Source: Polymyxa betae A26-41 (Eukaryota > Protista > Endomyxa: Phytomyxea). Taken from it: DNA of 54,814 nt. A program made the position numbers and the translations under genes. The first letter of the stretch is position 1. Each line of letters begins with the position of its first letter. This document shows positions 10,161-41,586 of the stretch, one piece after another. The notes under the pieces were generated by a model. That model worked only from the letters and a program-made list of their open reading frames with translations, ran no database searches and had not been told where the DNA came from. The stretch is from contig RBZT01000756.1 of assembly GCA_003693705.1 (NCBI GenBank), positions 1 to 54,814 of the forward strand, in the 5' to 3' direction.

Positions 10161-10350
10161 TGTCAATATTTTTTAAGCAGTATATTGACTAGATGATTAT
10201 CTCTGGACTAGATGAATATCATTGGACCGATGAATTTCGGGTCCGATGAATCGGCTGAACTCCGAGATCAGAGCTATCCTCCGACTTTAGTATTATTTAA
10301 GGGCTTGTAATCTATCGAAATCATTCAGTCTGCAATCATCATTGTAGACA
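10161..10350 (+). repeat. Gypsy 3' LTR (about 190 bp)
   Basis: TGTC...GACA termini just after the PPT; similar to 1-164. Confidence 0.8.
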
Positions 10351-10629: not shown

Positions 10630-11783
10630 TGTTAATCCAGAAAATCCAAGTCCAAAGTGACGCAGCCTTTCTACTCATACAGTCACAGGACGATACCTTG
10701 TGAACGTTCCCTATATATATACATTATTTTTTGTCGCCATATTCGACCTTTATTTAGATTAAGAGTCCCATATGTCGCACAGTGGCAATGAATCACAACT
10801 TGATGAATCATCGGAGAAAGCACCAGAAAGTATACTAGATGAAGAACTCGATCAAGCGATAAAACAAGCAGAACGAGAGCAAAAGATCAAGAAATTGAAA
10901 ATTGAACAAGGATCAAAACCAAGTTTGTGAACAAAAGACATATGCAATAGAAATAAACCAATTAAAGGAGCTGGCGACAACTTCGAATTCTGGTTGAGCA
11001 CCGCAGTTATGTACCTAAAAGCAACAAAATTCGACCAAGTTATCGGAGAAAATGATGATGGATCACCGAATCTGGAACCACCACATATCGATTCGCCAGC
11101 AAAGAAACAAATGGATTGGCAAGCACGACTTCTTATTGTTGGCACATTGATTACACCAGAAGTCGCGATGACCCTAATCTGCATATGTATGAAATCTCCT
11201 ATCACGCCTTGAAGATTCTGTTTAAAACATATAATCCCAGATGTAGAACTGTTACCGTGTCAATTTTTAAATATTTCTTCTCAATGCGGCAAGGAGAGAG
11301 CGAGAGCATCGATATGCTCAGCGCAAGTCTGAAATTATCTGCAAACCGTTTAAGAGCAGCTGTGGATAGCAAGATATTATAATTCATGACGAACCGACCG
11401 CTATGAAAATGATGATGAAAATTAATCGCAAATATGCTGCCACGATCAATGCGATAAACGCTCGTGACGATGAAGAGGATGAAGCATTAGATCTCGATCG
11501 ACTGACCGCAATTCTTGTACAGGAAGAGAAGATGAAGTTGAAGCAAGAAAAAGATGATATACTCCTATCTGCAAATTATTGCATCAACAAAGCGATATGC
11601 CGACATCATCCTCACGGGAAGCATCAAGAAAGAGAATGCAAAAGCAAATGTCGAATTCACCCATTCGGATCTCACTCAAATAAAGAATGCCGAAACCAAG
11701 CAAAACCCTTTAAACCATTTAACAATTCAAAGCAAGAAAGTGCAAATCAGAATAATACAAGCGTCAAAAGCAGTGACTCTTAA
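10630..11783 (+). mobile_element. 5' fragment of a copia element: short LTR (10630-10756), PBS, gag with two CHHC knuckles
   Basis: TGTTAA start interrupts the Harbinger frame; PBS 10757-10771; ATG at 10772. Gag-like IKGAGDNFEFW, FFSMRQGESESID, LTAILVQEE; CRHHPHGKHQEREC and CRIHPFGSHSNKEC. Confidence 0.8.
10757..10771 (+). promoter_or_regulatory. Primer-binding site complementary to the tRNA-Lys(CUU) anticodon arm
   Basis: GATTAAGAGTCCCAT, identical to 24929-24943; its reverse complement is ATGGGACTCTTAATC. Confidence 0.8.
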
Positions 11784-11935: not shown

Positions 11936-12903
11936 GACGGGGTAGGACAGAAAAATTTTGCAAGGTTTGGCTGTTGTCCTTTTGGCGAACATCGGAACAA
12001 GAATCCATAATCACAAACAAATTAGATAAACTTGTATATTCGTATGTATCTGAATCTCAAAAACTTGTTAAGATTGAGCAGCTGGAGCTCGTGAATCGTA
12101 AAGCAGCAACCAGTTTTGAAGATTCTACTTGGAGCAGCTATCCGTCACAATCCCTTTAACTGGATGCTATCTGAATCTAAATCTCTGGATTTGAGCGTTC
12201 CAAAAGTTCTCTAATCATAACGAAATTATTATTTCGTACTGGTTGTTACCCGGAGCTGCCGACAAGGTCGTAAACACGGCGCCGTCATCGTTCTGATCGT
12301 CCTGGAGCCGACCCACCCCTCTAATTATGGACCAGTCCCGCTGCCTTGATCAGGTATTCCTGGGGTCCCAATCATGAAATCGTCGTCATTGTCACAAGTG
12401 TGCAGGAAAAGTTGTCCTCCTGTGGTGAAGCAAGTCTTTCGGAACGCCGCAGAGCGTTCTCTGCTGTTTTGATAATTCAGCCGACATCGCTGTCCTGTTG
12501 ATGGTGCAGGCGTCGCCGTCCTGTTGCTGGACCAGCCGTCGCCTTCCTGAACCTGAAAGTAAACGTGTCGCCAGACCTTCGAACCGCAGAGAGGCGAAGC
12601 CGTCGCCCTGCTGATGGAGCTGTCGTAGGTGCTGGTTTCAGATATCTTTATCTGGGTTCAACAGTACCGTGCCATGAGCGCGCGATGATGCTGACCTCAA
12701 AGCTAGTCTAGCCCCGAGTTTTGCCAAACAAATCACTCTTGTTTTATGTACGATTTTGTTACTTCTTACTTGAGTTTTCTTCCTCTTCTATCGATATCTT
12801 ATCTATCGTACCTATTTTGTTCTTTTTTGAAGTTTTTTCTTTTTGGGCTCTGCTCGTTTTGTATTTTATTTTTTAGGGATTGTCCTTATGCTGGTGCTGC
12901 TAT

Positions 12904-13300
12904 TTGGGATCTGGCAATGAAGGAACGAAATCAGCAAGTATCGAGATTATGGGTAAAAGGATGAAGATTCAAAGGTTCCATCATAGACCAAGTGATTCAA
13001 GATGAGGATGTTACAGTCAGGCTCTAGGTTCGAGTCTCACACAGGTTGTTTAAATTTTGTTTTTAAGACACAACCAAATGCCGCGTTGCGTGAGCTGTGC
13101 TGATTGTACAGTCAAGAGAAGTGCGGCTGCCGCGTGGCGGTTGTAGAGCCCAAGAGCCAACTGGGATCCCAGTGGTTCAAGGACTAGAGACACTGTACCC
13201 TTCTAACAGCACCAGTGTGTTAACACCTCAGCAGGTTGGCGCAAGCCTCGGGCCTTGGGGTGATCACTCAAACGAGTCGATAACTTCAACATCGATTCAC
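12904..13300 (+). repeat. Ngaro split direct repeat A1
   Basis: Near-identical to 18068-18494 apart from an indel of about 32 bp. Confidence 0.95.
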
Positions 13301-13328
13301 AGCACCTCTTGGAGACAAGCGCTCGGAG

Positions 13329-14579
13329 ATGACAGGCAAACGGGGACGACACACTCAAAGGCCACCGTCGGGAAGGCGCGTTGAAGCGAGCCCACAGACT
13401 CAGGGGATGGTGATCACTGTCCCGGACGAGGGTAGCAGAAACCGTCGGCAGTCGGCTCGTGCCCATAATGGACGTAGCGAGGTTGTGGAAGACCAGCCTG
13501 ATGGAGATTCCTCACCAAGTACTGTCGATGATGACGGGAACGGTTGTTCACCCAATGATTCGGATGACGATGAGGGGGACGCTACAAGTGCCCAGACAGA
13601 TCGAGACGCCGAACATCAACAGCAATGCGGTCAGGACTCTGACCCACAATCTGATGATCAGCCAATTCGCTCGAGCCGTCACGATCAATCAACCAGCTCT
13701 AAAGTCATGTCCGAGATGATGAAAATGCTGAAGTTCATGCGTGACGAAGTCGCAGATACAAAGAGGGAGCGTGACAAATACCACACGAGGGCGCGAGAAA
13801 TGGCAAGCTCGTTGCGAGCAGGAGAAAGCAGCCAAGCGTCGGAAAGTTGGAAGTGATGATGAGCTCAAAACTCAGCAAGAAAGCTTGCGCGACTAGAACA
13901 GGAGATAATCGCAATGAAGGAAGCCGAACGCGCAAGAATCGAAGAATCTAACATGATTGCTCCTATGACTTCATCGACGGAGCAACAAGTTCTTAAATGT
14001 AAGTTCTTCCATCTTGAGAGAATTGTTATGGGGGCAGCGGGAGAGGCGGACAAGACCATTGTTGAATTGGATCCCGAAACCAAAGAGATCAAGGCTACAA
14101 CGAAACCAATCGAAATCAAGATTGATTCTTTTGCCAGGTGGAGCGAGGCATGGCTTGCAGTCATCGTGATCGTGGGACGCTCCAAGACTCTTCATGAGAA
14201 AATCATGTACCTGATCCACCATCACCAGTATATTTACTCGCTGTCGTTGGCATATACTTGGAAAAAAGTTTATGACTTTGACCTCACAATTCGCCGTCAA
14301 GTCGCACAACACAAAGATTATTCAAGTCTGATGAAGATGAGAGATCATGAAGCACGTTTGATCCACACTCCGAAAGAATTGAAGACTGCGAAGAATAAGG
14401 ACCCAACTAAGCAGCCCAACTCAAACAAGACCAGAAACCGTCATCGACGTGGAGTCGACGTTGACGGAAACGAGTCTGCGACAAACTCATTCGTGGAACT
14501 TGTAAGGCGGGTACAAGTGAGCACCCACAGCCCTGCCGTTTTTCTCATAAAGCAATCGCCAAGTTCGACTCTTACATGA
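13329..14579 (+). pseudogene. Ngaro ORF1 (gag-like) with C-terminal CCCH zinc finger
   Basis: IDSFARWSEAW..YTWKKVYDFDLTIRR; in a shifted frame near 14470, VCDKLIRGTC..CRFSH. Broken by stops and frameshifts. Confidence 0.8.
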
Positions 14580-16345
14580 TAGACTCATCTTGTAGTGTTG
14601 CGAACAGATCAGGCTTTGATTCTGATATTGGCCTCGAATGGTCGGATGACGGCCTCGTGGAGGATCACGAAAGAGGTGAATTTGGTAGAATCGTAGACCG
14701 CGGCCAACATCTGCATGGGAAACGTAGGGCCGAATACTTGGAGCAATTACGGAAGGTGGGATTGATACAACCGAAACTATGCAGTAGAGGCTGGTTAGAG
14801 TTTATGAAGGATTGGGCCAGCCGAAACGAAATCACCTATATGCTTAACCTCATCACTGAAGGTTCAGATCTGAGATACTCAGGGCCAAGAGATATTGTCA
14901 GGGATTGTGGCTCAAAATGTCCCAGTCTTGAACACACACGGCATCTTCTCAAGCAGTCCCTTGAACGCGCGCTCAAAGAAGGATACATCGCAGGTCCTTT
15001 CAATAAGAAGAATCTTCCTTTTCTGAACTACATCTCTTCCCCGTTATTCACGGTTCCAAAAGGACATGACAATATACGTCCGATTCATGACCTTTCAAAA
15101 GGACCAGGAGCTTTGAATAACTATATTGATAAGAACGAATTCAGCATTCACCTTCCAACCTTGGACAATATCATCCATAAGATCTGGCACTTACGCGAAC
15201 ATCCACACGGAGTCTTCATGTGGAAGGAAGATGTCAAAGACGCGTTTTGCCATTGCAAGGTTCGGATTAAAGATAGGGCCTATTCCATACAGAAAATTGG
15301 GAACCAATACTATGTACGGTTATCGCTAGGTTTTGGAGGGAGAAGTTCCCCGGGACTATGGCACGAAATCACGGAAACCTTGCCCAAAGGATTAGCACAC
15401 AAAAACGAATATTTTACAACATTGGAATGCTACGTCGACGACTTCTTTAATATATGTCCAGGAGAAGAACAAGCAAAATTGTCTCAAGAAGATTTCCAGC
15501 GCTTTTGTTCCACCCTGGGCATCACTTTAGATCCAAAGAAAAGACAGGAGCCTTCGCAAGTAATGACCATCATCGTGTTCGAAATCGATACTATCGCGAT
15601 GGAGATCAGGTTGCCCGAGTCATATGTGAGGAAGAGTCTTGAAGTCTTCCGCCATTGGACGGACGATTCAAATCCGAAACGATTTCGAGAGCTTCTGAGC
15701 CTGGCTGGTATCTTAAACTGACTAAGTCAGATTATTGTGTGTGGAAAGACCTTCACTCATGAGATACTGAAAAAGATTCGTCAAACAAGTCCGGATCCCA
15801 GCTCTAAGATCATTCCGAGCGAAGGCATGCTGCAAGATTTGAACATCTGGAGTCATTGTCTCCAGAGATGGAACCTCAGAGAGATTCTGCAACGATCTAG
15901 CAGTATGAAGATGTCTCAGTTAGGAATCTACACCGATGCATCTGGAATAGGTTCAGGTGTGAATCTCTCCAACGGGAACTGGTTCGCATATTGCTGGTCC
16001 GACCAGGAACGTCAAGTGGACATTTGTGAGAGAGAGCTCATGGCCAGTTTACAAGCAGTAGAGATCTGGGGAAGGCAATGGACCAACCTTACGGTCATTA
16101 TTGAGTCAGATAATATGAGTGTGGTGCGAAGTTCAGCAAAGCGGCGTGCCAAGAATAACGATGGGCTGAAAAACTGTACAGATGTCTGTTTGCTTTAGAG
16201 CTCAAGTACAGATGTCGGATAATCTTCAAACATATTGCGGGATCTCGCAACATGCTAGCCGATGCATTATCGCGACAAAGAATTGAAGAGTTTTTTGTCT
16301 TTGGCCGTCAGCGAACAAACGTGGCGAACACGTTTCAAGTTTAAT
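14576..16345 (+). pseudogene. Ngaro reverse transcriptase and RNase H
   Basis: IAGPF, SPLFTVPK..RPIHDLS, KEDVKDAF, LGFGGRSSP, YVDDF; then YTDASGIG, ERELMA, IESDNMSVV and HIAGSRNMLADALSR. In-frame stops at 15719 and 16196. Confidence 0.93.
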
Positions 16346-16599
16346 GCTGGAAAACACGCATGAGCAATGTCTGCAGATGATGCTGACCACTTAATGGTGT
16401 ATGACCCGACGGATGACGTCACCGACGGAAGACGTCGAAATGGGTGACGAATGAATGCGCAGATATGCCGACGTGGATTACACGATCAAAAACCCTGCTG
16501 CCCTCAGAGCTTCTCTCGATTTGCTACTTCATTCGGATAACTTATTTTGCTACAGATGAGAACCTGTTAAAGGAATCGGGGCTATTCCAAGACTCAAAT

Positions 16600-17850
16600 G
16601 TGACGAAAGATGACCCAGTCATCTATGATGAAGCGGTGCGGTTGGTGGCGACAGGATACTCGAGTGAGACTATTGAAACCTATATGACAGCTGGAAAGCA
16701 TGGAAACGTTTCGTCGAAGGCAGAAGAATTGACGTAACCAATGTGACCGAGACAAACTTGTGCCTTTTCTCTGCTTGGTTAGCAAATCAAGAACCTCCTG
16801 CATCTGCTGCAACCATAGCAAATTACGGCTCCGGAATTCTGAGTTATATGAACATTTTGGGGCATCCAGTGCAAGGCCGCGATCAATGGCATCATTACAA
16901 CACCACTTTACAGGCCCTCAAAAAGCGGGACGCCCCTCAAACTGCAGAGAGAAAGAGAGTAGGTCTGTCCATTTGCCAAGTACTGAAGATCAAAGGAAAT
17001 TGTCATACCACAAACGACTTGAAATATGCTCACCTTATCTGGACTCGGAATAATAGGCCTCCATCGCCTCGGAGAACTCGCAACAAAAAAGGGTACTGCG
17101 CCATCTTTCAGTCAGTTGATAATCGGGGAAACAGGGGGATCTCTTCGCCTGTACAAATCAAAGACTGTATCAACTTATATTTTCTCCTAATGAAGAAATA
17201 AATACTGCGACACTGCGCACTATTTANNNNNNNNNNNNNNNNNNNNNNNNNNNNAGACCACCGGAAGCTGAAGGCCCCCAAGCCCTGAATCACGTTCCGT
17301 CGGAAAAGCGTCACGGACACGCGTCACGGACCGCGGAACTACCCTGGAAAAATTACAGTTTGATTAAAATACCATTACGATTTTACAGCACTAACTCCAA
17401 CGACTATCACGTTTTAGTAGGAGTGCTATAAGACTGATATTAATCGCGACAGCGTTGTAGTGAATTATGCCAGAGGAAGTCATGACTCCACGGGATTCAA
17501 TCCATTAGGATGGATTTCCAAGTTGATTGAATCTCGGCCACCAAATCGAAAGACACCAACAAGTCCGATTTTTCAAACGAAAACCGGGCGACCAATTCGT
17601 GGTCCCGCGTTCATCAAGTGGTTGAGATTGAAACTGACAGAAATAGGAGAGCTGTTTGTGAAATACTCCGGACACTCCTTAAGAATCGGTGGCATGAACG
17701 ATTTTCGGAAAGCCGGTGTCGATAAGGAGGTGATAAAAGGCTCACGGCCGGTGGAGCAGTGATGCTGTGGACAGATATTTGCGAATAGATGTCGAAGAGG
17801 AGACGAAAGCTTTACAATCGCTGTTGAGCTAACCTAATACCCAAATAAAG
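16600..17850 (+). pseudogene. Ngaro tyrosine recombinase, interrupted by an insertion
   Basis: Catalytic motifs across frames: GLHRLGEL, KSKT/D, GHSLRIGG, HGRWSSDAVDRYLR. Confidence 0.92.
17168..17429. mobile_element. Unclassified insertion in the YR gene, spanning the assembly gap 17227-17253
   Basis: Flanked by the direct repeat AAGACTG (17161-17167 and 17430-17436), which duplicates the K-T-D codons. Confidence 0.75.
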
Positions 17851-17948
17851 ATACATGCAGACTTTGAGATACGGCAGCGACGGTGGATTCTGCCGACTTA
17901 CTTTGAAGATTAGCTCCAGCTTCTTCTAATGTTGATGGCGTAGTGTTT

Positions 17949-18068
17949 GGAGGTTCCAGAAGCTAGATCTTTGGCGAATTGAGGGGACAGGATTCTTATT
18001 CCCTCCCTCCCGATGGCGAATTTGGCCTCCGCCTTAAACACACAATCGTAATAAATTTTACCGATAAT
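17949..18068 (+). repeat. Ngaro split direct repeat B1
   Basis: Near-identical to 18563-18681; contains CCCTCCCTCCC and AATAAA. Confidence 0.93.
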
Positions 18069-18494
18069 TGGGATCTGGCAATGAAGGAACGAAATCAGCA
18101 AGTATCGAGATTATGGGTAAAAGGATGAAGATTCAAAGGTTCCATCATAGACCAAGAGATTCAAGATGAGGATGTTACAGTCAGGCTCTAGGTTCGAGTC
18201 TATCACAGGTTGTTTAATTTTTGTTTTAAAGCCACAACCAAATGCCGCGTTGCGTGAGCGGTGCTGATGGTACAGTCAAGAGAAGCGCGGCTGCCGCGTG
18301 GCGGCTGTGGAGCCCAAGCCAACTGGGATCCCAGTGGTTCAAGGACTAGAGACACTGTACCCTTCTAACAGCACCAGTGTGTTAACACCTCAGCAGGTTG
18401 GCGCAAGCCTCGGGCCTTGGGGTGATCACCCGACCTCGGCGCCTCTATCTTGAATCATTCTTCAAACCAGTCGATAACTTCAACATCGATTCAC
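18068..18494 (+). repeat. Ngaro split direct repeat A2
   Basis: Copy of 12904-13300, directly abutting B1. Confidence 0.95.
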
Positions 18495-18562: not shown

Positions 18563-18681
18563 GGAGGTCCAGAAGCTAGATCTTTGGCGATTTGAGGGGA
18601 CAGGATTCTTATTCCCTCCCTCCCGATGGCGAATTTGGCCTCCGCCTTAAACAAACAATCGTAATAAATTTTACCGATAAT
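18563..18681 (+). repeat. Ngaro split direct repeat B2
   Basis: Copy of 17949-18068. Confidence 0.93.
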
Positions 18682-19584
18682 GGTACATGTTATCGCCGCT
18701 TACCGTTTGTCCGGCAAATCCTGCCAATGCTTCGGTCTGTTCGCTGTTGCTGCTGTCACTAATGGTGCCGATGATACTAGTGCTGATGCGGCTGTTGGTG
18801 TTATCACTGCCTGTTGTCGCAGCTGCAGTCGTTACTGCTTTGTCAAGTTACAACATTGCAAAGGTCACGGCCATCGTAATCCGCAAGAGCAAAGCACCCA
18901 TTTCGTCACCGACGCTTTCGCAACTATTCAAAAGAATAGAGTTCAATACTGACTACTCTGACCTTATCGAACCTGCTTCATTTCTGATAATCTCTAATAG
19001 GGAGAAAAAGCGACCGATTGGGAGAAATATGTACTGCTGAACAGGTCCCCACCGCTACAGCAGGAGCAGCTGGTGAAGATTCTTCTTTTTCACGAACCTC
19101 GATGTTCTCTCATTGCGTTTGTAAAGGCCTATGATGGACGAGGCCGAAAAAAATTTGAACTTCGCTGCGAGAATGCTTCTGCTGATCCTTTATACTACAT
19201 TACATATCGCATGCGATAGTTTCGCATTTTTTGTCGAAATAGACATACTGTGAATTCCTGGATCGTCAGTGTCGGACTTAAGATATTTTCAACTGCGGAC
19301 ACAATGTTTTAGACTTCGTCGACATTCCCTTCATCCTGAGACACTAAGGGCGCGTTTGGAAGCCACGCGAAATCCAGATTCCGAGGATTAATATCTGGAT
19401 TTTTCGTGAAATCCGGATTTGATGTAGAAATGACACGTTTGGCTGCCGAGAAACTGATTTTGAGAATCCCGATTTTCCGCCTCGAAATCGGGATTCTCAA
19501 ATTTCTATTCCCACCAGGATTTCCCACGGAAATCCGATTTTCGAGCTTCTAATTTCTCTCAATTTTGTCTCCGCTTCAGCAATC

Positions 19585-21389: not shown

Positions 21390-22720
21390 GACAGCGCAGC
21401 TTCTCATCTTTGCAATCCTGTCTCTGAGTTCATTAAAAAGGTTGGAGGATTCGCCGACTGTTGTATCAGTTTCAAGATTGCCGGTTTTGGCATATTGATT
21501 GAGGTAAATTTATCATTATTGAATCTGTACGTGTGATACCAGGTCTTCGAAGTAATCGCCAACACCTCCGGAAATCCTTACGAAAATATGCAGGACGCAG
21601 CAAGCAATTACCAATCTCGACTTCATCTGATGCGAAATTTCTGGTGCATGCAAGAGAATTGGAAATCTCTTTTTAAGAATGCCAAAAAACGCTCAATGGC
21701 ATTTCTTGCTGGCGAATGTCGAAGATTGAATAGCTCTTTATAATCTTGCGGTCTATATACAATCAGTTGTTTGGGAGTGTTAAGCAGAACGCTGCCCGCC
21801 GCTCGGTAACCTCTTGATTTTGCCTTGCTTCCATTCCCTTAAGTGATATCGTACGCCTCGATAGGGAGGAAGTAGCTTCGCTGTCAAGCCAAGCCCTGCA
21901 TCGCCCAGGTCGTATTCTCCTTCAGGAACTGTAAGCCCTTTCGGGTATGTGTCGGATAGAAGAGTGCTATCTGCGGCAGATCCTTCCCATCCGGCCAGCA
22001 CATAGGTGAACAAAAAAGCAAGCAGCCAGGACGTTCTGGCTCAAGAACCCCATCCTATTCCTATAAGGCTGCGCTTGACTGGATGGAACAAACGCTGGAA
22101 TGTGAGTGCCATCCAGGGCCATCCGGCAGTCTTCAAAAAAAGGAAAGAATTTCGGGTTATCTCGAACAATTGGCGCTAATTCGTCTTGCCTAGGAAATCT
22201 GATATATTTTTCTGCCAGTGAGCAAATCGCATCAGTAACCCGATGGAGTACCCTGCTGCATATAGTTATAAATATGGGAATGTATTGGCCATATAGACAA
22301 CCAAAAACTGACATTCCTACTGATAGTTTCTCCGCTTCTTTGGAAACGTTCTTGAGCATCCCTATTTTTAGAGCTGTGGGACACAATACAGAGAAAAATT
22401 GCCATCATTTCATCGACATCCATATTGCGTGTACTCTGCGAACTTCCCGATATCAAGAGCTCACGCTTGAGCTTCTTAAAAATGGGTGTACTCATGCGAA
22501 GGGTCTCGTATATACGAACTGGGTTACCTCTCATTAATTATATCACCCATTCGGCTCCTTGGAGCCCCGATGTTCGAAATGGCTCCTTGACACAGAAAGA
22601 TTTGACATACCACTATCCTACGAGGCATGCCGCAGCTCGATTTCTTCGTTGAAAAGAATCGTATTCGTCATCATCAGAGAAACTCATGATCGTTTGGTGC
22701 GACATAACATACGTAAACCC
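21390..22720 (-). pseudogene. PIF/Harbinger DDE transposase
   Basis: QERFQRSGETISR, ALDGTHI, SQNVLAAC, YVLAGWEGSAADS, LGDAG, PYRGVRYHLREW, FNLRH. Frameshifted. Confidence 0.92.
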
Positions 22721-24542: not shown

Positions 24543-24658
24543 TTGATGAAAAACAATTACGCTGTGCCTGTATGTTCTGTTTGTGTGCCTCCTTGCCGCA
24601 CGCATGCGTTTTTCAATATAATTGGCGAACTCACCGACGTTGAGTACGTCGACTCTCC
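24543..24658 (+). pseudogene. 5' part of a probable host membrane-protein gene split by the copia insertion
   Basis: The frame ...DVEYVDSP continues in frame at 30263 once the element and one TSD copy are removed. Confidence 0.55.
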
Positions 24659-24928
24659 TGTTGAGATCCAATCCAGCACCCATACAGCCAGGTCCCATTA
24701 TAACCAACATCATGACACCAATAGGTCCCATAATGACTTCTAGGTATAGTTAGGTAACATAAGCATCCAATCTATCCAATAATAAAAACACGCTTTTCAT
24801 TGACATTCTGCTGGTATTCTGTCATTAAAGTAGATTAAAGGCCGTGCTTACGCACTAGAGATTCTGGTACCTTAGCCACACTTCACTCAATCAATCCGAA
24901 TTAGTATTCCGCCTGTACGGTTTCAAAA
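24659..24928 (+). repeat. Copia 5' LTR (TGTTGA...TCAAAA)
   Basis: Direct repeat of 29998-30257; boundaries fixed by the TSD. Confidence 0.95.
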
Positions 24929-24943
24929 GATTAAGAGTCCCAT
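24929..24943 (+). promoter_or_regulatory. Primer-binding site complementary to the tRNA-Lys(CUU) anticodon arm
   Basis: GATTAAGAGTCCCAT abuts the LTR with no spacer and lacks the TGG start of a PBS for a full-length tRNA 3' end. Confidence 0.85.
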
Positions 24944-27900
24944 TCACTCTATCATATACTAACGCTTCCTCACCATGTCCACTTAATCGATTACCGTCAC
25001 CAAGCTCCGTCGTGCAGATGATTTCGCCCAATGGAAACGCCGTATTATGGCGCTCCTTCAAGACAAAGACTATGTCACCATTATCCGATACGATCCTCGT
25101 ACTTTCGATCCTATTGCCGATAAAGTTCAATCGATGCAGACTGACGACACAAAACCTACTTCCAACCGTGTCGACATCAAGGCAAAAGGCATAATCGAGC
25201 TCAATGTCGAAGATTCCGTCCTACCCCATCTCATATCACAAGATACTGCCCACGATTACTGGGTGAAATCACATTCTATGTTCCAAGCATCTTCCTTATC
25301 CTCCGGCGTTTGACGCTTACGAAACCTAATGCTGTGCGCACAAGCTGGCCGTTCCATTCAAGATTATGTTGGTGAAGTTGAGCAGCGTGCTCGCGAACTT
25401 CGAGCCTGTGGTATTGTGGTATTGATTTCAACCACAAGCTTGTCTGCAATGGTCATTGCCAACCTTGACAGTCGGTTCACCGCCGTTGCTTCAGCCTTGG
25501 ACTCTCAAGACATCAACACAGTATCAATTACAAAAATCACTGCTGTTCTGCTCAATGAAGAAGGACGCCAGGGTTTCAGCCAACCGGTCTATCAAGCCAA
25601 TGTTTCCAATTTCAAGAAAGGCCGGTGATGTGTTCACACTCATTTAGCCCATACTGACGCCGAATGCTTCTCTCAACATCCACACCTACGTCCTCCTGGA
25701 TGGAAACCTCGTCACAATATCAATGATTCCAATAAAAACACCAACATTCAATCCTATCTTTTTGCGGCTTCTGTTGCCCTCACCTCAGAAACAAAGACTG
25801 ATACATGGTTAGTTGATAGTGGATGCGCAGTACATATGTGCTCCGACACTTCTTTTTTAAGCAATATTCGCCAAAGTCCGACACCAGTGGAAATCCATCT
25901 TGGTGACAACTCAGTTATCAAATCTACTGCCTCCGGATCATGTACAATCAAGGTGGCTGACAGTAACATACAATTACGACACGTCCTTTCCGTGCCAAAT
26001 CTGGCCCAGAACCTGCTATCGCCCGGGCAAGCCACCTCTTATGGTTTAAAGTTCCTTTTTAACGGCGACTATTTGACGATATTCACCGACGAAAATTTCG
26101 TTGAGCCTCAGCGCAAGATTCTGTCGCAAATTGGAAAAACTTCAGATAACCTATACCGCAAGGACAGTCGACAGGCTCCGGAAGCAAAGGTAATCTCATC
26201 CTTTGTTTCAAGCTCTGAGCGCATCACCTTGCCACTGGACCTATGGCACGCCAGGCTTGGTCACACAAACCACAAAGATGTTCAAAGATTGGGCAACAAA
26301 CACTCGTATGGCATCTACCTGAAAACAGAAGAACCTGCGCTTTCGAAGCCTGCGTATTCGGAAAAATGCCTCGAAAGCCATTCAAGTCAATGCCTCCTTT
26401 CAGGTACTCTCAGATTGGAGAATTAATTGTTAGTGATGTGATGGGCCCATTCCCACAAGCATCTATTGGTGGGTACAAATTCTTCGTTACATTTATGGAT
26501 TGCCATTCAAGATTCTGTACCGTGGCATTATTGAGGCACAAATCGAAGCAATTTGAGAATTTCAAAATTTTCGAGGCCCAATTCACAACCCATCACAGCA
26601 CGAAAATCAAACAGCTACAGTCAGACAATGGAGGAGAATACATGTAACATGCTCAGAGGGCCTGGCTTTGGAAAATGAAATTCATCATCGAACCACTGTA
26701 CCTGGCAATTCCAATCTAATGGGATGGCCGAGCTTTTCAATCGACCAATCACTGATATAGCTCTTTGCATGTTAGCGAAAGCTAACATGCCGGCGCAGTG
26801 TTTCTCATGGGCAATACGTCGACCGCACTCTGCACTTAGAAACCGAATGACCCCTTATGAAGCTTCAAAAGGTGAAAAACCTTACCTTGCTTACCTCCGA
26901 GTCTTTGGGTGCAACGCCTACGGTCATATTCAAGATCAAAACAGAACCAAGCTGGACAACCATTCTCGCAGAGCCGTCCACATTGGATACGCACAGTCTC
27001 AGAGGGCCTATATCCTATACGATCCATCTACAAGAAAAGAATTTGCGTGCTGGGACATGGTATTCGATGAATCATCCTTCACATTTGGCTTCGATCGAGA
27101 GATCACCAAGCAGACCAAGTCACAATCAAACCAAATTCTGGAAAACGACACTGGGTGACCCAATAATGGGAAGGAGCCTGACAGTGTTGACAGCACAGAG
27201 CAATCTGCCCAAGCCGCATCAAGTTCTGACAGTGAGAGTGAGTAAGTAGACTGTACTCCAGCGAACTCGGATCATGAAGCGCCTGAAGACCATGAGGGCG
27301 GTTGCGGAATGTCAACACTATCAGCTGAATCTGAATTATCCGACAACGACGATGACTCTGACTATCAACCACCAAACTCTTTGAGCCGCTCATTCGACCA
27401 TAAACTTGCCGATCAACAAAGAGAACGTTCCGTCAGAACAAGACAAGAGCCGGGTGAATGGTGGAGAATATTTCAAGCACATATACCTGATAACAAAATC
27501 GCACATCATCATGAAACACTGTTGAGGCCACCAATCGAAAGTATGAAAGTAACAGAAATCCCGATACCCAAAACAACAACAAGTGCATTGAACGGTGCTT
27601 ATGGAGGACACTGGTACGAAGCGATGGCCAAGGAAATTCAACAGCTCTCAGACTTCAAAACATGGAATCTTGAAAAACTACCAGCTGGACGAAAGCCTAT
27701 AGCCTGCAAATGGGTGTTCAGCATTAAACCAAGCATTCTAGGCGATGGCCTTGTGCGAAAGTTCATGGCCCGCCTTGTGGTCAAAGGATTCTCTCAACGC
27801 TCAGGAACAGATTATGACGAATCATTTGCTCCTGTTGCTCATGCGGAATCTTTCCGTTTACTTCTAGCGATCGCCGCCCAGCTCAAATTGCAGATGCATC

Positions 27901-28430
27901 AGCTGGACATTGTTGGAGCTTTCCTGAATGGGGACATCCAAGAAGAAATATACATGAAGCAACCCGAAGGCTTTATCCAATCAGGTCTAGAACAGCTTGA
28001 CTGTTAGCTCAACTAAGCTCTGTATGGGTTTAAACAAGCAGGTAGGGTTTGGAACCAAGAGCTAGACAGCTTTTTCTCGAGGTTGAGGTTTATCCGTGCA
28101 CCCTCCGATCCCGGCATATACACACTCCGCCGTGGACAAAGTATTGTCTTGCTAGGGGTCCACGTTGACGACATTGATCTCTTGCCAACAAGTCGTTTCG
28201 AGTTTCTCAAGTCAATACGAAATCACCGATCTGGGAGCGCCAAATCATTGCTTGGAATGAGCATTCACAAAAACGATGCAACCGGAGGCCGTCAGTCAGA
28301 GAGATTATGTGGGCGACTTGCTCAACCGGTTCAACATGACGGGTTGTAAACCCGCAGAGACGCCTCATCAACCAGGTGTTTATCTTACCACTAGGATGTG
28401 CCCTCAAACATAGAGCGAAAAGTCTGACAT

Positions 28431-29308
28431 GCACTGAAGCGTCTGTTGAGATACCTGCGTGGCACCGTCGACATCGGCATCAGATTTGGCGGGAGCATCT
28501 CCGTAGACGGGGTCAACACTCTGGTCGGCTGGGCCGACGCGGATTTTGCTGGATGTACGGAGACGCGCAGTTCGACGACCGGGTTCGTCTTTAAGCTGAA
28601 TTATGGTCCTGTCTGTTGGGCGAGTCGGCGGCAAGTATGTGTCGCGCTCTCTACAACAGAGGCGGAATATCAGGCCCTCTGCGATGCTGCAAAAGAGGCG
28701 ATCTGGCTGCGCGGCCTTCTCGGGTTCTTGCAATCTGGTGATGAATCGTGTATGGCCACTATCATTCATCAAGACAACCAGTCAACGAACGCTTTGACGG
28801 AGAATGGGCGGTTGTCTCGGCGCTCAAAGCATATCGAGGTCCGGTACCACTATACAAGCCAGAAGATCCAAGACACCGCGATCAAGTTAAAGTACTGTTC
28901 GACAAAGGAGATGATCGCGGACATATTGACGAAGGCGTTGTCCCCGGAGGTGTTCGTGCGTCTTCGAGCCAAGATGCTGCGTTCGGATTCCAGCATTGGG
29001 AGTTCGGGCGGGAGTGTTGAAGATGGTGGTGCGCGTGCGACCTCCCACTGACGGGCTTCCATATGATCCTTGCGGTCGCGTGCGGGCGAGCACATGACCG
29101 GCCCTGGAGTACCAGATGATCTATGATACGAAACTCACTTTTGTTATGACCACTTATCGTTGACCTCTGAGTTCTGAGTAGCTGGATGGCGAACAATCGT
29201 GCTGCATCATCTCAGGCAAGAGGCAGCGCGAACGGTTCAGCGGACAATCAAAGTCCGGACTCCGCGACAGAGAATATTCCGCAGCCGAGCCGCACTGAAC
29301 CTTCAACT
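28431..29308 (+). mobile_element. Nested 3' fragment of a second copia element (RNase H, PPT, LTR 29015-29308)
   Basis: ALKRLLRYLRGT..GWADADFAG..RSKHIEVRYH; PPT GGGCGGGAG; LTR TGTTGAAG...CTTCAACT. The outer RT reads SEKSDM before and VPxAELVGSL after. Confidence 0.85.
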
Positions 29309-29997
29309 TGTGCCTGACGCGGAACTTGTCGGCAGCCTCAACTGGCTTTGTAATAATACTCACCCTGATAGTTCGACTGCCGTCGGAACGATGTGCCGAT
29401 TTATCAACAATCCTGGAAGACCGCACTGGAAAGCCGCACAGCGTGTGCTGCCGTATTTGGCTAGCACCTCACACCTGGGAATCTACTTCTCAGAGCAATC
29501 GACAGGGCAAGATCAACTGATTGGCTACTCTGATGCTGATTGGGCCGGGGACCCAGACACTCGCCGTTCAACCACTGGATACATAATCATGATGGCAGGG
29601 GGTCCTGTGTCCTGGAAATCGAAATTACACGTTTCAACGGCATTGTCATCAGTCGAAGCTGAGTATATTGCACTATGTGCGGCATCACGGGAGACAAAAT
29701 GGCTACGTCAGCTGCTTTACGATCTCGGCTTCCCAGTTCCATGTGCAACTGTCATCCGTGAGGACAACAATGGGTGCATCTCAATTAGCAGCAATCGTAG
29801 GACAGATAGTCGAACCAAACACATTGACGTGAAGTACCATTTCGTGAGAGACCTCATTACGTCGAGCCAAGTTCAAGTTGAATACACACCAACAGACAAA
29901 ATTTTCGCTGACGTATTGACGAAACCTAAAAATACACCAAAGCTTAAATCATGTCGACAAGCTTTATCTCTCAGATGGATGCCGTTTCGAGGGGGCG

Positions 29998-30257
29998 TGT
30001 TGAGATCCAATCCAGCGAGCCAGGTCCCATTATATCCATCATGACACCAATAGGTCCCATAATGACTTCTAGGTATAGTTAGGTAACATAAGCATCCAAT
30101 CTATCCAATAATAAAAACATGCTTATCATTGACATTCTGCTGGTATTCTGTCATTGAAGCAAATTAAAGGCCGTGCTTACGCACGAGAGATTCTGGTACC
30201 TTAGCCACACTTCACTCAATCAATCCGAATTAGTACTCCACCTGTACGGTTTCAAAA
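29998..30257 (+). repeat. Copia 3' LTR
   Basis: Direct repeat of 24659-24928 with several substitutions and small indels. Confidence 0.95.
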
Positions 30258-30262
30258 TCTCC

Positions 30263-31705: not shown

Positions 31706-34555
31706 GAGCGCGTTTGGAATCCCCAAATTTTACGTAGAATTTGGGGATTCTGCGTATGTAAATGTAGGAAGTGTAAAAAACGCCTACACAGAGAGTTTGG
31801 GAGCTCTTCCGATCACACGCTTTTACGTAAAGTTTCTGCGCAGAACGCACTACAGCTTTGAGGTGTAGTTGACATTGCGTAACTCGTCCGACATCATTGC
31901 GATATGGAAGATCTTTCATCAGATTCCGACCAAAATTCGAACAGGATCATGCTTATCGCCAGCTTGATGGCTGCATATGCCTCAGATTACTTATGCAAGG
32001 AGCCCTGTCGCACCTCAGCTTTGCAGGGATCGGACTACATCCTTGAATTAATAGGGGATGGGGTCAGTACGATTCGAGCCTACGAAAGTCTAAGGATGGA
32101 TCTTTTATTTTTATTAAACTATCTTTTATGATGCAGCGTAAATGGCTGCTGGTAAATAGTCGGTAAACTGACAATCTGTTTTGATGCTATCCTGTACAAA
32201 TGCCAAGTTGAATGCTATAGATCTGTATCCGTAGAGGAGCAACTTGCTATGTTCTTGTCTGTAGCAGGATATAATGATAGCAATAGACGTATCCAAGAGC
32301 GATTTCAGCACAGTGGCGAGACTGTCAGTCGCTAACTTTGCTCATTCATTAATCGTGATAGCCAATTAAGAATTAATATATTGTTGAGGTTTTTTTGAAA
32401 GATAGTGGAAGCTCTTGTGCAGCTAGCCCCAGAGTAGATCAAACTCCCAGATGCGTCGTCGCCATGCCCTGCAAAAATTCGACCATTTGCCCCGTATTTT
32501 CCGTATTTTGGCAACTGTTTGGGAGCGCACGATGTCACACATATTCCAGATGTTGTTCCTATTCATTTACAAGCACCCTATAGAAATCGTAAAGGATTTC
32601 TAAGTCACAACGTTCTAGCAGTCTGCGATTTCGATTTGATGTTTTACTTCCGTCTTAACTGGGTGGGAAGGCTCGGTTGCAGACGGATCCGTCCTGGCGG
32701 ATTCTTTCCAAAGGGGATTCCACATGCCACATGGTCGCTTCTACCTTGGAGAAGCAGGATATGCAATTTCTGACTATTGCTTAACTCCATATCGAAGGGT
32801 AAGATACCATTTACGCGAATGGCATCAAAACATAAATCTTCGGTACGACAATCTAGCAACTTCGATCTGGATCTACAAACAATTAAGCCATAATATTTTT
32901 AGGCCCCAGAACTACAAAGAGCTTTTTAACTTGAGTCATGCAGAGTTACGAAATCACATTGAGAGCGGTTGTATCTTTTCTCCCCGCTGGGAGAAAAGGC
33001 TGCGCATCCCCGCAAAATTCTGTACTGTCACTAAACAGTAAGGAGAATGAGTCGGGACTTTGGAAGTCAGAAACTCAATTCACAAAAACAATTCTCAAGA
33101 ATGGTACTCGAACTCTGAACTTGACTGCGGACAACACGATAGGTAATCTTTCCACCCGACAAAGTCGCCGTAGATTTGAATCTTGCTTACGGGAGATGGA
33201 ATACACCATAAACGCCATCAAAATAAAACCTGAAACAAGCCCCTAAAAGACACCACAGAAAAGCCCCACAAAAAAGCCCCTTTAAAAGGCCGTAAAAATG
33301 CCCTAAAAGATACCCGCCACACAGACAGGCAGCCTCTAAGCAGCGCGGCCCCGGACTGTAGTCATACTCCTTACTTTTTAGTGTTTAGTGACAACACAGA
33401 ATTTTGCGGGGATGCGCAGCCTTTTCTCCCCGCGGGGCAGCACGGCCCTTTCTGCCCGCGGGGAGAAACGATACAACCGCATTGAGAGGATCTTCGGAGT
33501 TTTCAAACAGAGATTTCCTTTACTGAAAAATCTTCACAGGTACAGTCTTGACATGCAAGGCCAGGTCACGTTAGCACTCTGCGTTTTGAAGAACTTCATC
33601 ATGATGGAAGGTGGAGCCAAAGACTGGATCGAAAACGAATATCTACTGAGCAATGATGCTCAGAATTCGGAAGTCAGAGTAGAAAGCGATACTTCAATGC
33701 GAAATCGGGGCCATAGTAACCATCACGAAAGAACGAACTTGGGAAGCTGTTACGTGATAGCATAGCAATGAAGATGTGGAGCGACAATGTTACCAGTAAC
33801 TGATAAATGAATGTCATCTTTTATTGAATCGCTTATCAATTCAGTCGATAAATCTCTTGACGAAGCCACTCATCACGAGCCTCGTTCTTTGGAATAATCA
33901 GAATCATGGCCGCCTTCGTCGGGTCTGAAACCGCTCGGTATGCTTCAGCTATATCTGAAGGCACCCAATCACAGTATTCTCTGGCGATTTTCTCAACCGC
34001 CAGCTGACACGATTGCACGGCTGCACTCTTTTGCTAGGTTCTCGACTCGGCAATGCTGTTCAAAGCGCGAGCGAACATAGCAGGCCCAGATGACATTTTA
34101 GGTGGACGTGGCGTCGTTGTAGATGAAGAGAATTTCAGTATTTTCGCTACAGGATGCTCTTCCTCATCTAGTTCTTGCAATAAAGGCAGTTATGATTAAA
34201 CAGCGAGATAGATGGGTGTGGTCAGAACTGTACTTGGCTGCACCTCGGGTGTATTTTCATCCAAATCGTCATTGTCGTTCAAGACCTCGTCATCCCTAAT
34301 GGAGCCAGAGCCAGGGACTTCTGCGGCCACCGCGGTTCCACAGCCGTTCGAGCTGGTGGGGACACTGCTCACGACAGACATTCCAGTGGCTGGTTGATGG
34401 TTTGCAAACAGCTCTTGTGTCAAGTAAAAAAGCTGAAACCGATGTTTTCTAAATTTCCGAATAATGGCTGCTTTCTTCGCTGATGACTGTAAATAAAGGT
34501 TAGCAAGGCATTTATGGTTGTTTACAGAATCATTACTGAGTCCAGCTCCTGCTCC
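31706..34555. mobile_element. Second PIF/Harbinger element, right end lost; transposase on plus (31904-33800), ORF1 C-terminus on minus (33836-34555)
   Basis: TTA then GAGCGCGTTTGG; QERFQHSGETVSR, YRNRKGFLSHNVLAVC, RNHIE|RIFGVFKQRF. The ORF1 tail AYRAVSDPTKAAM resembles AYSLMTDKTKAAV of the 19348 element. Confidence 0.88.
32966..33479. mobile_element. Mutator (MULE)-like MITE inserted in the PIF transposase
   Basis: Long TIRs (about 85-115 bp) CGGTTGTATC...GATACAACCG; 9-bp TSD CATTGAGAG (32957-32965, 33480-33488). Confidence 0.9.
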
Positions 34556-34728: not shown

Positions 34729-36130
34729 CCGGTTCGCAGAGATTGCCGCCCCGCTGATACAATTGCTGCGCAAAAGTACACCTTTCATCTAACCACAGGC
34801 TCAAGACGAAGCATTCCGCGCTATACGTGATAAACTGGCTTCCTACCCAGTATTGCACTACCCTGACTCATCTCGGGAATTTTTCGTGAAGACCGATTTT
34901 TCAAGGGTCGTTATGGGTGCTGTCCTGACACAATTTAATGACGAGGTACATGAATGCCCCGCCGCCTACCTGTCCAGACCGCGCCGTGGAAAAGGCTCGA
35001 CATACTCGGCTCGAGGGGGGAGTCAGTCGCCCTCTGGTGGGCAGTCAAACGATGGCGCCCGTTTTTGGAAGGAGTACAGTTTACGGCAGTCTCCGACCGC
35101 CATTTTCTTAACAGATAAGTCGGCGATGATTACGGCCAAGGCCCTGCTCCAACTATTTAGCCAGGAGTCGTTCCCAATCCCAGTTACCTCGAATCGAGGG
35201 GAGACTTTAGGATCGTACCTGCGTCAAGCTATTGCAGTTATAGTTGGCTTCAAGCTCGCGACTACATTGGCATATCGCGATAAGGGTAATGCCTTAGTGG
35301 AAAGGACACACAGTTTCTTACCTGCAGGACTCACGGCTATGAGCAACCCAGAACAGACCGACTGGAACGAGATCGTTGATTCTATATCGCTCTCATATCG
35401 ATCGTGCGTGCACCCAGAGTTGGCTGAGACGCCGTTATTTCTGGAACGTGGGCGGGACCCTCGCATGCCGCAGGAACTACTCGTGACACCTAGCCGTTTG
35501 GAGAATGAGTCGACAGATGTCAACGAATGGAGACTATTGACCCTTACACGATTACAGAAAGCGCGAGAGCTGGCAGTGCAGACAGACCAGACAGTGATTT
35601 CGCGTAGCGCGAAGGCATACAACCAGAACCGATATGATGTCAAGTTCGACGGGGGCAGCTATTTTGGGCGTGGAAGCAGCCCGTACAAAGCAACGAACCC
35701 GATCCAGCAAGACCTACAAGGAAATTTGAATCGTCGGCCTCAGGACCCTGGCGCGTCCTTGATCAGCTCGCGAATAATAACTACAGGCTTCGACACGCTC
35801 GGACCGGCGAAGTGGACGACTTCAACGTTGATTCCCTGGTACCCGTCACGGACACTGAATGGTCGCCGTCCCTCGACGACGTCCTCCAAGCACCAGAGGT
35901 GTCCGACTTTGTCGACTTCGACAACCCATATGATACCGACGACGAAGAGACCCACGGTCTCTACGACGATATGAATGCCTTACTCGGTACGCACCTTTCG
36001 AACAAGGGGGTGTAGCACGGGCTGCGCTCGTGTTCTGAGACCCGACCTTGACCGGATATCGGGGCGAGCCCAACAGAATGGCTGAGCCGTTCGCACAGTT
36101 CTTGATCGCGGTCTTGGTGAATTTGACCCT
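34729..36130 (+). mobile_element. Deleted gypsy fragment (RNase H, IN, PPT, start of 3' LTR at 36011), related to 41586-44986
   Basis: FAEIAAPL, VKTDFS..GAVLTQ, GNALVERTH, ETPLFLERGRDPR; PPT AAGGGGG followed by TGTAGC. Confidence 0.85.
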
Positions 36131-37949: not shown

Positions 37950-40397
37950 TATCGGCAACCTGAGCCAGACGTCGTTTCTTTAACGTAATGAATCTATTCC
38001 TTCATCCTCAATCCTGTCAAAATGGTCGAAGATATGTGCACGATGTTCAAGTAAGAAACTGGAAGCACGGCTCATCAACATTCAACGAGTCGCAGATCAC
38101 AGGAGACACACCGCTTGGATTATACCGGAGAACAGCTTCTGCTTCCAACGATGCGAGACCAGGATGGTTAGGGTCTTCAAATATCATCCTTCATCGATAG
38201 ATTTGAATGCCTTCTGCAATATAATGTCATTTTGATGTAATAAGCGCCAAACCGGGATGAAGCCTGGTTTGGTTTGTTCCTGCTAGATGCGTGTAGCGAC
38301 ACCAGAAAGTCATGTTTGCAACTCCGCCAATGAGTTTACTGGGCCAATCCGGACAAAACGCGTGAAACAGTTTGGTGAATATCCCGAACACTCCCGCCCC
38401 ACTTCGACGTCTTTTAAAAGGAATCTCAATCACAGGAAGATTATAAATCTAAAAGGATTGAAAGAACCGAACCTGAACATCGTTGAACGCGGTCCCGTGA
38501 ATATCAGTGGAACCGTCAAATGCAACCGCAAACGCCCAGCATGTAGTTAAAGCGTCCAAAATTCTCGAAACGAGGCGGGGCAAGCAATGCGAACATATTT
38601 CGCAACATGAAGATCATTGCAAATCCCAGATTAGGAACTGAAAGTATTTGCTTGTCGTCTTGGATGGCAGCGGCGGCCATTCTGAAAGACCTTATATTCG
38701 ATGACTAACAAAACGCACTGCTAGCTCAAATCGTTTGACTTGGTTCACTTCCACAGTAAAATTTCTGTGGTCGGCATTAAAACAAACAAAGAGGTCAATC
38801 CTGTTCGAGCAAATAATCGTGTGTTCGTTAAGAGGCAAGAAGACGTACGTAATGATGTCGAACGTGCATTTGGAGTTTTGAATTCTAGATTCCGCATATT
38901 CGACACTCCTTGCAAACTCTGGAACAGGGACGAACGGCGCTCTGTAATCATCGCCTGTATTATCATCCACAACATTGAGGTAGAGAATGAGCGTGATCGT
39001 TATCTGTGTAACACGTAATTGTTCGACGATGAGGAATTGTTCCGATTATCAGGCCGCGCTTCTCACTTCCAAACGACTGGGTTGCTCAGCGCTCAAATAT
39101 TGTCCAGTTACACTGCACCCGGAAATATACTCAACTACAGTTGGATCTGATCGAACACATCGGGACATCCGCAGGTGAACATTGAGAGGACGATAATGTA
39201 TATACTGTCCCTGATCATTACAACGCCATTGTTGGTCTGAGCTTGCTCCGGTATTGCAGCCGCTTGAGCTGGACAGACCCTTGGGGTTCCTCGGACTGTG
39301 GATCCTGCACAAAGAACATAAGCAGGTTCTGTTATGATTCTCGAGAACTCTACAAAGGCAGACGGCTCAAAATATCAAAACCTGTGTTGATCCATCTGAT
39401 CAGAAGCCCAGTTGGATCTTATAGTAACGTTGATAAATGCACGGTAGATGAATAGGGATATTTGATCGGTGAAGGCCGGTTACGTTACATGTTCCGTTCC
39501 TCAGCCAGTCTTCGGCGCTCATCGGCAGCACCCGCCATCTTCTCAGCTGCCCCCATAATGCGTTAACGCGTTTGCCTGGTTCAGCAAACGCTTCCTCATC
39601 CTGATGTGACCTTTCTCTGCGCTCTTTCTCAGCAGCCTGTCCAAAAGGACGATCAGGAGTCTTGCGGGTCCTCCTGCTTCGACCTTGGCTTCGGATAAAC
39701 CAGACGTTTTTTCAAAAAGAGAAGACTTCGGGCATAATTTCAGAGGTTTATAGGCCTCCATATACTTAACTGTTGGTTGGTGGTAATAAAGAACCGTTTT
39801 GTTACCTCTTCAATTGCGCTCTGCTCATTCTCACCTGATCTCAAATTGTTCAAGCGCTGGTTCAATATCCCTGCCAATTTCGGAACGTTTCTGGCAGGTA
39901 TTCCCCAATAGCTCTCCAGAGAATTCGCCGTTCTCTCAATCGTGAGCTCGCCGGCCATCTCTTCGTTAAATTGGGTGCATACCCGCTGCCAAAACGTGGA
40001 TCCTGCTTGGTCAACGCCGTTAATCGGATCCATCGTAAGAACCTTGCAGCTCGAACAATCGCCAAGGACACATTCGGATTGAAACCGGGGCCACGAGAAG
40101 TCAGTTTTTTGGGCAGAGTCTGGGCCAGCTGAGCCATTTGCTGCATCATTGACTTCCTTAAAATTACAGCGACGACAGATCCCAGGAAAATGCTACTCTC
40201 CAGAATCGGCAGTACGGACTGTGAGCGGGGCCTCCGCACATCCTGTCTCAGGCCGCGATCTACATTTGACTGGGAGCGATACCGGCTGCGGTGGGTCTGC
40301 TCTTATAGTCCATTTGTAGCAGAAAATTGCGATCCCCCGAGATTAGGTCATTTTTAGGCAGTAGGCCATGTTTAGGCCACTTTACAGGGCCTCGCTC
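37950..40397. mobile_element. Harbinger element: transposase on plus (about 37950-39185), Myb/NAM-associated-like ORF1 on minus (about 39480-40313)
   Basis: RQEDVRNDVERAFGVLNSRF..ACIIIHN and DLIEHI; DPINGVDQAGSTFWQRV..RTANSLESYW. TAGGYCA-like subterminal repeats 40344-40379. Ends are approximate. Confidence 0.82.
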
Positions 40398-41328: not shown

Positions 41329-41586
41329 GGGCTCGTTTGGCAACCACCACCGGAATTCCGTAGGTGCTACGGAATTTCCATGGTCACAATTTGTGGCCGT
41401 GGACAGGAAATTTCGGTAGCGGAAAGTTCCCAAGATTTTTTCCGCAGGCAGTGACCTGCGGACAAAATTCGACGGAATTCCGGCGCCGCCTACGGAATTC
41501 CGGTTTCCTCTGTCCACGGTCGCCAAACACTCAAATCGCCGGAAAATCGGAAATTTCCGTTTTTCCGGCGGAAATTGCGGAATTGT
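41329..41586. mobile_element. Truncated PIF/Tourist-like MITE
   Basis: TAA then GGGCTCGTTTGG; many CGGAATTCCG/GGAAATTTCC subterminal motifs. Confidence 0.75.

What the first reader, a model, noticed from the sequence alone, without database searches (positions are those of the whole stretch)
24929..24943. Copia element apparently primed by a tRNA-Lys(CUU) 5' half
Seen: GATTAAGAGTCCCAT directly after the 5' LTR; its reverse complement ATGGGACTCTTAATC contains the loop CT-CTT-AA. Established: this matches the anticodon arm (about nt 26-40) of typical eukaryotic tRNA-Lys(CUU). Drosophila copia and yeast Ty5 prime from an equivalent fragment of initiator tRNA-Met, and Candida Tca2 from a tRNA-Arg fragment. 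I do not recall a Lys(CUU)-half primer being described. Inference: a copia lineage that depends on cleavage of tRNA-Lys 3' of the anticodon, and that might be regulated by host tRNA halves. Best candidate for an undescribed system in this window.
Basis: partly seen in the sequence, partly recalled or inferred. Interest (0 to 1): 0.78.

Follow-up and report, generated by a model that had tools for sequence, protein, structure and literature searches.

The report
Copia element with tRNA-Lys half-primer site
A broken copia-type jumping gene carries, right after its left terminal repeat, a 15-base site matching the anticodon arm of lysine tRNA, so it likely started copying itself from a cut tRNA; such a lysine site is already in print for a large fungal copia group, so this is a further example, not a new system.

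Summary
The 15-mer at 24929-24943 begins on the first base after the 5' LTR of a degenerate copia element (24659-30257, 5-bp target duplication, empty site seen in one run). It is complementary to positions 26-40 of tRNA-Lys(CUU) genes from other organisms, the register described for Hemivirus half-tRNA primers. A second exact copy (10757-10771) precedes a divergent copia gag of the same clade. In a metagenome scan for LTR end plus motif, 11 of 28 loci were copia elements. Self-priming found no support. The novelty claim fails: Donnart et al. 2017 report an internal tRNA-Lys primer site for the fungal FunCo1 clade, and this scan's earlier notes list Lys-arm sites on at least three other genomes. 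What is left: the element lies in a well-supported, unnamed environmental copia clade apart from other Lys-site elements, and its LTRs end in AA instead of CA. Not tested: the host's own tRNA-Lys, the primer RNA itself, FunCo1 membership by tree. Verdict: new member of a known kind, low interest.

The parts
24654..24658 (+). left target-site duplication (5 bp)
   Evidence: same 5 letters as 30258-30262; empty-site joint with 5 shared letters
24659..24928 (+). 5' LTR, 270 nt, begins TG, ends AA (not CA)
   Evidence: self-BLAST 92.6% to the 3' LTR; alignment
24929..24943 (+). primer-binding site complementary to tRNA-Lys(CUU) positions 40 to 26
   Evidence: tRNA genes compared are from other organisms
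24975..25628 (+). gag, interrupted by stop codons
   Evidence: Pfam Retrotran_gag_2 E 8.6e-5 and 0.001, both under the curated cut-off; 47-59% identity to gag of P0242, P0245, P0251, P0253
25629..27158 (+). protease, pre-integrase, integrase and SH3-like regions, frameshifted
   Evidence: Pfam Pol_BBD, gag_pre-integrs, SH3_retrovirus; translation
27246..28433 (+). reverse transcriptase, frameshifted
   Evidence: Pfam RVT_2 E 1e-34; translation
28434..29305 (+). nested piece of another copia family (RNase H end, purine tract, LTR-like part); bounds approximate
   Evidence: related contigs in X1 and X2 skip 28434-29318; its RNase H is 42% identical to the element's own and falls elsewhere in the tree
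29306..29980 (+). RT end and RNase H of the element itself
   Evidence: 61-68% identity to the nearest environmental proteins
29989..29997 (+). polypurine tract
   Evidence: sequence directly before the 3' LTR
29998..30257 (+). 3' LTR, 260 nt, ends AA
   Evidence: 10 substitutions and 2 indels against the 5' LTR, K2P 0.040
30258..30262 (+). right target-site duplication
10757..10771 (+). second exact copy of the primer-binding site, in a different truncated copia family
   Evidence: flanks share no evident likeness with the first site
10772..11780 (+). broken gag remnant following the second site
   Evidence: BLASTP to P0242 gag E 3e-10, 29%; about 24% to the first element's gag; no retrotransposon Pfam hit

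Best explanation
The 15-mer sits directly after the 5' LTR of a copia retrotransposon and is complementary to tRNA-Lys(CUU) positions 26-40, so it is likely the site where a tRNA-Lys fragment predicted to end at position 40 primed minus-strand DNA synthesis, as half-tRNA-iMet does for copia and Ty5. Shown: element anatomy, position of the site, register against tRNA-Lys genes of other organisms, recurrence in a second family in this window and in 11 metagenome elements. Inferred: the host tRNA has this arm; the arm is melted onto the element RNA and cut after position 40 by an unknown nuclease; RT extends that 3'-OH straight into the LTR end, so the primer junction sets the LTR terminus with no spacer, which may be why an AA end was tolerated. 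This copy cannot move on its own (stops, frameshifts, a nested insert).
For: Zero-gap position after an LTR whose bounds are fixed by the target duplication and an empty site. Pairing ends at tRNA position 40 (counted by hand), the start point given for Hemivirus primers (PMC1181622 passage). Two families with about 24% gag identity share the 15 letters and not their flanks. 11 of 28 metagenome loci with LTR-end plus motif have copia protein hits; L121 has the same 14 letters and best hits in this element's clade. Precedent for a Lys-internal PBS in FunCo1.
Against: No host tRNA gene was read: no genome is held, none lies in the window, and the read-based check was not obtained. No RNA evidence. 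The scan pattern fixed 14 motif letters, so those loci show recurrence, not covariation with tRNA; the 15th letter agrees in only 3 of 11. A third copia in the window (about 4290-8300, minus strand) falls in the same clade on a long branch and has no such site within 3 mismatches, though its 5' LTR is not identifiable.
Confidence: 0.82

Rival explanations
1. The site binds intact tRNA-Lys(CUU) through its anticodon arm, but as a packaging, dimerisation or LysRS-related signal, and priming uses another RNA end.
For: No primer RNA was observed; sequence complementarity alone cannot show a 3'-OH at position 40.
Against: The match starts on the first base after the LTR and stops at position 40, where a primer end must lie; no other primer-like site was seen beside this LTR (read by eye).
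Confidence: 0.07
2. Self-priming (Tf1/TAR type) or a GalEa-like hairpin: the site pairs with the element's own RNA.
For: Self-priming and hairpin sites exist in copia lineages.
Against: Longest complement of 24929-24950 in the 5' LTR is 4 nt, at the low end of 500 control 22-mers (4-10 nt), and 8 nt in the whole element; LTR end plus leader folds weakly (-9.4 kcal/mol, no shuffle control).
Confidence: 0.03
3. The primer is a different RNA with the same arm, such as a tRNA-derived SINE transcript, an element-encoded tRNA mimic or another tRNA isotype.
For: Host tRNA set not examined; tRNA-like stretches occur in some fungal LTRs.
Against: All ARAGORN calls over the motif were Lys(ctt); no tRNA or Rfam hit in the window.
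Confidence: 0.06
4. Chance match.
For: 15-mers do occur by chance in very large collections: 114 of 120 viral loci were not tRNA-Lys genes and 17 of 28 metagenome loci had no copia hit.
Against: 1.2e-4 exact matches expected per window, 2 found, both at the head of a copia gag.
Confidence: 0.01

Closest known systems
FunCo1 clade of fungal Copia elements (Donnart et al. 2017, PMC5445492; Results read in full, supplement file 4 read)
   Same: PBS complementary to an internal region of tRNA-Lys; 10 of 11 letters equal to window 24930-24940.
   Different: FunCo1 is reported almost only from Pezizomycotina. This element's nearest proteins are unnamed environmental ones; the single named Pezizomycotina hit (Hortaea, 49%) lies outside its clade and is not known to be FunCo1. 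The passage read calls the site a 'classical PBS' and does not discuss cleavage or register.
Hemivirus-type priming: Drosophila copia and 1731, yeast Ty5, Volvox Osser (PMC1181622 and PMC5371799 passages)
   Same: Copia superfamily, primer predicted to end at tRNA position 40 in the anticodon stem-loop, site next to the LTR.
   Different: Those use initiator tRNA-Met; here tRNA-Lys(CUU). Priming is experimentally studied there, only predicted here. LTR ends AA here.
Other anticodon-arm primer sites: Bianca (Ile), Bryco and Gymco-II (Met) (PMC6317226 passages); rust-fungus Copia and Helenus (Tyr, Ile, Asp/Asn, iMet) (PMC10886601 passages); Candida elements (Arg UCU, iMet) (PMC4139406 passages)
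   Same: Show that copia lineages switch the tRNA used in this mode repeatedly.
   Different: None of these passages lists a Lys anticodon arm.

Membership tests
Ty1/copia LTR retrotransposon | Two direct LTRs with 5-bp target duplication | tested here: met
Ty1/copia LTR retrotransposon | Order gag-PR-INT-RT-RH with copia-type RT | tested here: met
   Pfam Pol_BBD, gag_pre-integrs, SH3_retrovirus, RVT_2 in that order; gag and RNase H by homology
Ty1/copia LTR retrotransposon | LTR termini TG...CA (usual, not strictly defining) | tested here: not met
   both LTRs are TG...AA; 1 of 11 metagenome elements (L128) also has AA before the site
Half-tRNA-primed (Hemivirus-type) elements | PBS adjacent to the LTR and complementary to an anticodon arm ending at position 40 | tested here: met
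   against tRNA genes of other organisms
Half-tRNA-primed (Hemivirus-type) elements | Match to the host's own tRNA | tested here: inconclusive
   no genome held; host tRNA sequence not obtained
Half-tRNA-primed (Hemivirus-type) elements | Primer RNA on strong-stop DNA is a tRNA 5' fragment | not testable with these tools
   needs particles or cDNA intermediates of an active element
Genus Hemivirus in the strict sense | Primer is the initiator tRNA-Met half (recalled as the genus definition) | tested here: not met
   anticodon complement is Lys(CUU)
FunCo1 clade | Internal tRNA-Lys PBS | tested here: met
   10 of 11 letters
FunCo1 clade | RT groups with FunCo1 references | tested here: inconclusive
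   no FunCo1 reference in the tree; the element groups with unnamed proteins (100/99) and away from the one Pezizomycotina protein
FunCo1 clade | Host in Pezizomycotina | tested here: inconclusive
   host lineage not resolved; no Pezizomycotina name among the best 120, one among the best 120
Self-priming elements (Tf1, TAR) | PBS complementary to the element's own 5' LTR transcript | tested here: not met
   longest complement 4 nt

The most novel reading that the evidence does not exclude
Half-tRNA-Lys priming is not a peculiarity of FunCo1 but a widespread mode found in at least three deeply separated copia lineages, one of them an unnamed clade of microbial-eukaryote elements whose LTRs end in AA, so that integrase accepts a non-CA end set by the primer junction; the cutting activity would then recognise tRNA shape at position 40 whatever the isotype.
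Probability: 0.45. Interest if true: 0.42.

Novelty: new member of a known kind. Interest (0 to 1): 0.2.

Why it matters
It adds an unnamed copia clade to the elements with a Lys anticodon-arm primer site, and two divergent families in one genome keep the same 15 letters. How the primer end at position 40 is made remains poorly settled even for Ty5 and copia (one review passage credits host RNase P); a set of elements using different tRNAs in one register would let that be tested. This copy is dead and the kind of site is published, so the window itself opens little. Practical point: PBS finders that test only tRNA 3' ends would miss such sites (inference).

Tried and rejected
Whole genome: none held, so no host tRNA scan or family census. 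Reading the host tRNA-Lys from run contigs: not obtained; the question stays open. Sequencing runs: no RNA holder listed. Viral contigs: no relative of the RT (14 candidates) or of clade alignment A1 (7 candidates). Metagenome scan: 17 of 28 loci had no copia hit and were dropped; four of these (L133, L135, L136, L148) look by eye like prokaryotic tRNA-Lys ends, and L140 has a gag-like frame without a hit. Host lineage from Atlas look-alikes: inconclusive. FunCo1 references: none found as sequences. Ke et al. 1999 on Ty5: not held, title only seen in a reference list. Earlier scan notes by sequence and by place: nothing. 'Three changes' of the Lys label on the trees is not taken as three origins, because only 4 of 73 rows have a known PBS and the deep branches are unsupported. 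Self-priming and hairpin readings rejected. Paper searches for a mechanistic account of Lys-half priming gave only the FunCo1 sentence; subscription journals and Repbase were not searched.

Full report
Observation. The 15-mer is at 24929-24943. Self-comparison gives two LTRs, 24659-24928 and 29998-30257, 92.6% alike; aligned, they differ by 10 substitutions in 260 columns and two indels, K2P 0.040. The same five bases flank the element on both sides, and one contig of run X1 joins 24653 to 30258 with five letters fitting either side, which is the empty site; X1 may be the window's own source, and the joint was listed for none of X2-X4. The motif therefore starts on the first base after the 5' LTR. 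Both LTRs begin TG and end AA, not CA. By base composition 1.2e-4 exact copies are expected in the window; there are two.

The element. Pfam finds copia protease, pre-integrase, SH3-like and RVT_2 domains in copia order, and weak copia gag hits below the curated cut-off. The frames are broken by stops and shifts. About 28434-29305 is a piece of another copia family: related contigs in X1 and X2 skip it, and its RNase H lies elsewhere in the tree. This copy cannot move by itself.

What the motif matches. ARAGORN called tRNA-Lys(ctt) over the motif in 6 of 120 viral loci and in 5 of 6 loci from two narrower scans. Counting along the eukaryote-type gene in L154, the site pairs with positions 26-40. 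A passage in PMC1181622 gives position 40 as the start of cDNA synthesis for Hemivirus half-tRNA primers. The host's own tRNA was not read: no genome is held, the window has no tRNA or Rfam hit, and the read-based check was not obtained. This is the main gap.

Recurrence. The second exact copy, 10757-10771, is followed at once by a broken gag-like frame that hits the gag of this element's clade (P0242, E 3e-10) but is only about 24% identical to the first element's gag; the two sites share the 15 letters and not their flanks. A scan of metagenome contigs for an LTR end plus 14 motif letters gave 28 loci; 11 of 28 have copia protein hits. In four of them the pol end lies upstream of the site, as expected where an assembly runs from 3' LTR into 5' LTR (inference). 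L121 has the window's 14 letters and best hits in the window element's clade; L128 also has AA before the site. The pattern fixed these letters, so this shows recurrence in copia elements, not covariation; the 15th letter agrees with the window in 3 of 11.

Rivals. The longest complement of the site in the 5' LTR is 4 nt, against 4-10 nt for 500 control 22-mers, so Tf1-type self-priming is not supported. Chance is excluded by the second copy. A non-priming tRNA contact or another RNA with the same arm cannot be excluded without RNA data.

Mechanism. Most likely the anticodon arm of tRNA-Lys(CUU) is annealed to the element RNA and cut after position 40, and RT extends that end directly into the LTR. 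Position and register are shown; host match, cleavage and priming are inferred from Ty5 and copia. A review passage credits host RNase P for the Ty5 primer end (PMC5371799); the nuclease here is unknown.

Placement. The window row fills under half of the columns, deep branches are unsupported, only 4 rows have a known PBS, and no FunCo1 reference is present, so neither FunCo1 membership nor the number of origins is settled. A third copia in the window joins the same clade on a long branch and lacks the site; its 5' LTR could not be found. The host lineage was not resolved.

Known context. Donnart et al. 2017 (PMC5445492; Results read in full, supplement file 4 read, six supplement files searched) state that FunCo1 elements, detected in 270 fungal species and almost only in Pezizomycotina, carry a PBS complementary to an internal region of tRNA-Lys; it agrees with window 24930-24940 at 10 of 11 letters. 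Passages in PMC6317226 (Met and Ile halves, supplement search), PMC10886601 (Tyr, Ile, Asp/Asn, iMet) and PMC4139406 (Arg, iMet) show that the tRNA used in this mode changes often. Passages of PMC6238403 and PMC7773854 added nothing. Eight searches showed no experimental study of a Lys-half primer in the held library; one figure-type supplement of Donnart et al. was not held as text and may hold more on FunCo1. Earlier notes of this scan report Lys(CUU) and Lys(UUU) arm sites on other genomes; they are unchecked leads, not support.

Verdict. A real, well-placed primer-binding site of a known kind. Interest 0.2; the wider spread across lineages and the AA terminus are the parts worth a follow-up.

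Noticed in passing
window 24928 and 30257; run X2 loose end before 24922; window 10740-10756: Both LTRs end in AA. An X2 contig joins a different upstream sequence to the same LTR end and motif, and its loose letters resemble the stretch just upstream of the second site, which suggests a second family with the same AA end and a short deletion in the window copy.
   Followed up: partly
window 24654-30262: Run X1 holds both the filled and the empty site, so the insertion may be heterozygous or strain-variable despite 4% LTR divergence.
   Followed up: partly
window 28434-29305: Nested 3' piece of another copia family with much higher contig depth in X1 and X2; an 8-base repeat at 28431 and 29292 suggests loss of its 5' part by microhomology.
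   Followed up: partly
window 4290-8300, minus strand; 8267-8278: Third copia element of the same broad clade. Its leader has a 12-mer resembling an ordinary tRNA-Met 3'-end primer site (10 of 12 letters to the GalEa site) inside a 7-bp hairpin; if real, primer type switched within the clade. Its 5' LTR is not identifiable.
   Followed up: partly
window 12901-18494: Element with split direct repeats (12901-13267 and 18065-18429; 17949-18068 and 18563-18681), a RVT_1 hit and frames that read like RNase H and tyrosine recombinase: Ngaro/DIRS-like by recalled anatomy. Its repeat holds a stretch like a tRNA T-arm near 13010-13045.
   Followed up: no
window 53-153 and 10242-10344: Two 81%-alike LTR-like repeats; gypsy remnants at 800-3500, 8500-9300 (chromodomain-type by Atlas look-alikes), 34800-36000, 41700-44800 and 46300-50000.
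   Followed up: no
window 21600-22650, 32000-33800, 38100-39100, 50200-50550: Fragments that read by eye like Harbinger-type and hAT-type DNA transposases; short palindromes at 31717-31750, 41537-41570 and 19459-19501, and an inverted pair 32982-33041 / 33378-33437 that may be MITE ends.
   Followed up: no
P0005 and cluster members: Close relatives of this element's RT/RNase H are filed under Bacillus sp. assemblies on short contigs, probably eukaryotic contamination.
   Followed up: no
L154: A contig in an archaeal MAG carries a eukaryote-type tRNA-Lys(CTT) gene, probably contamination.
   Followed up: no
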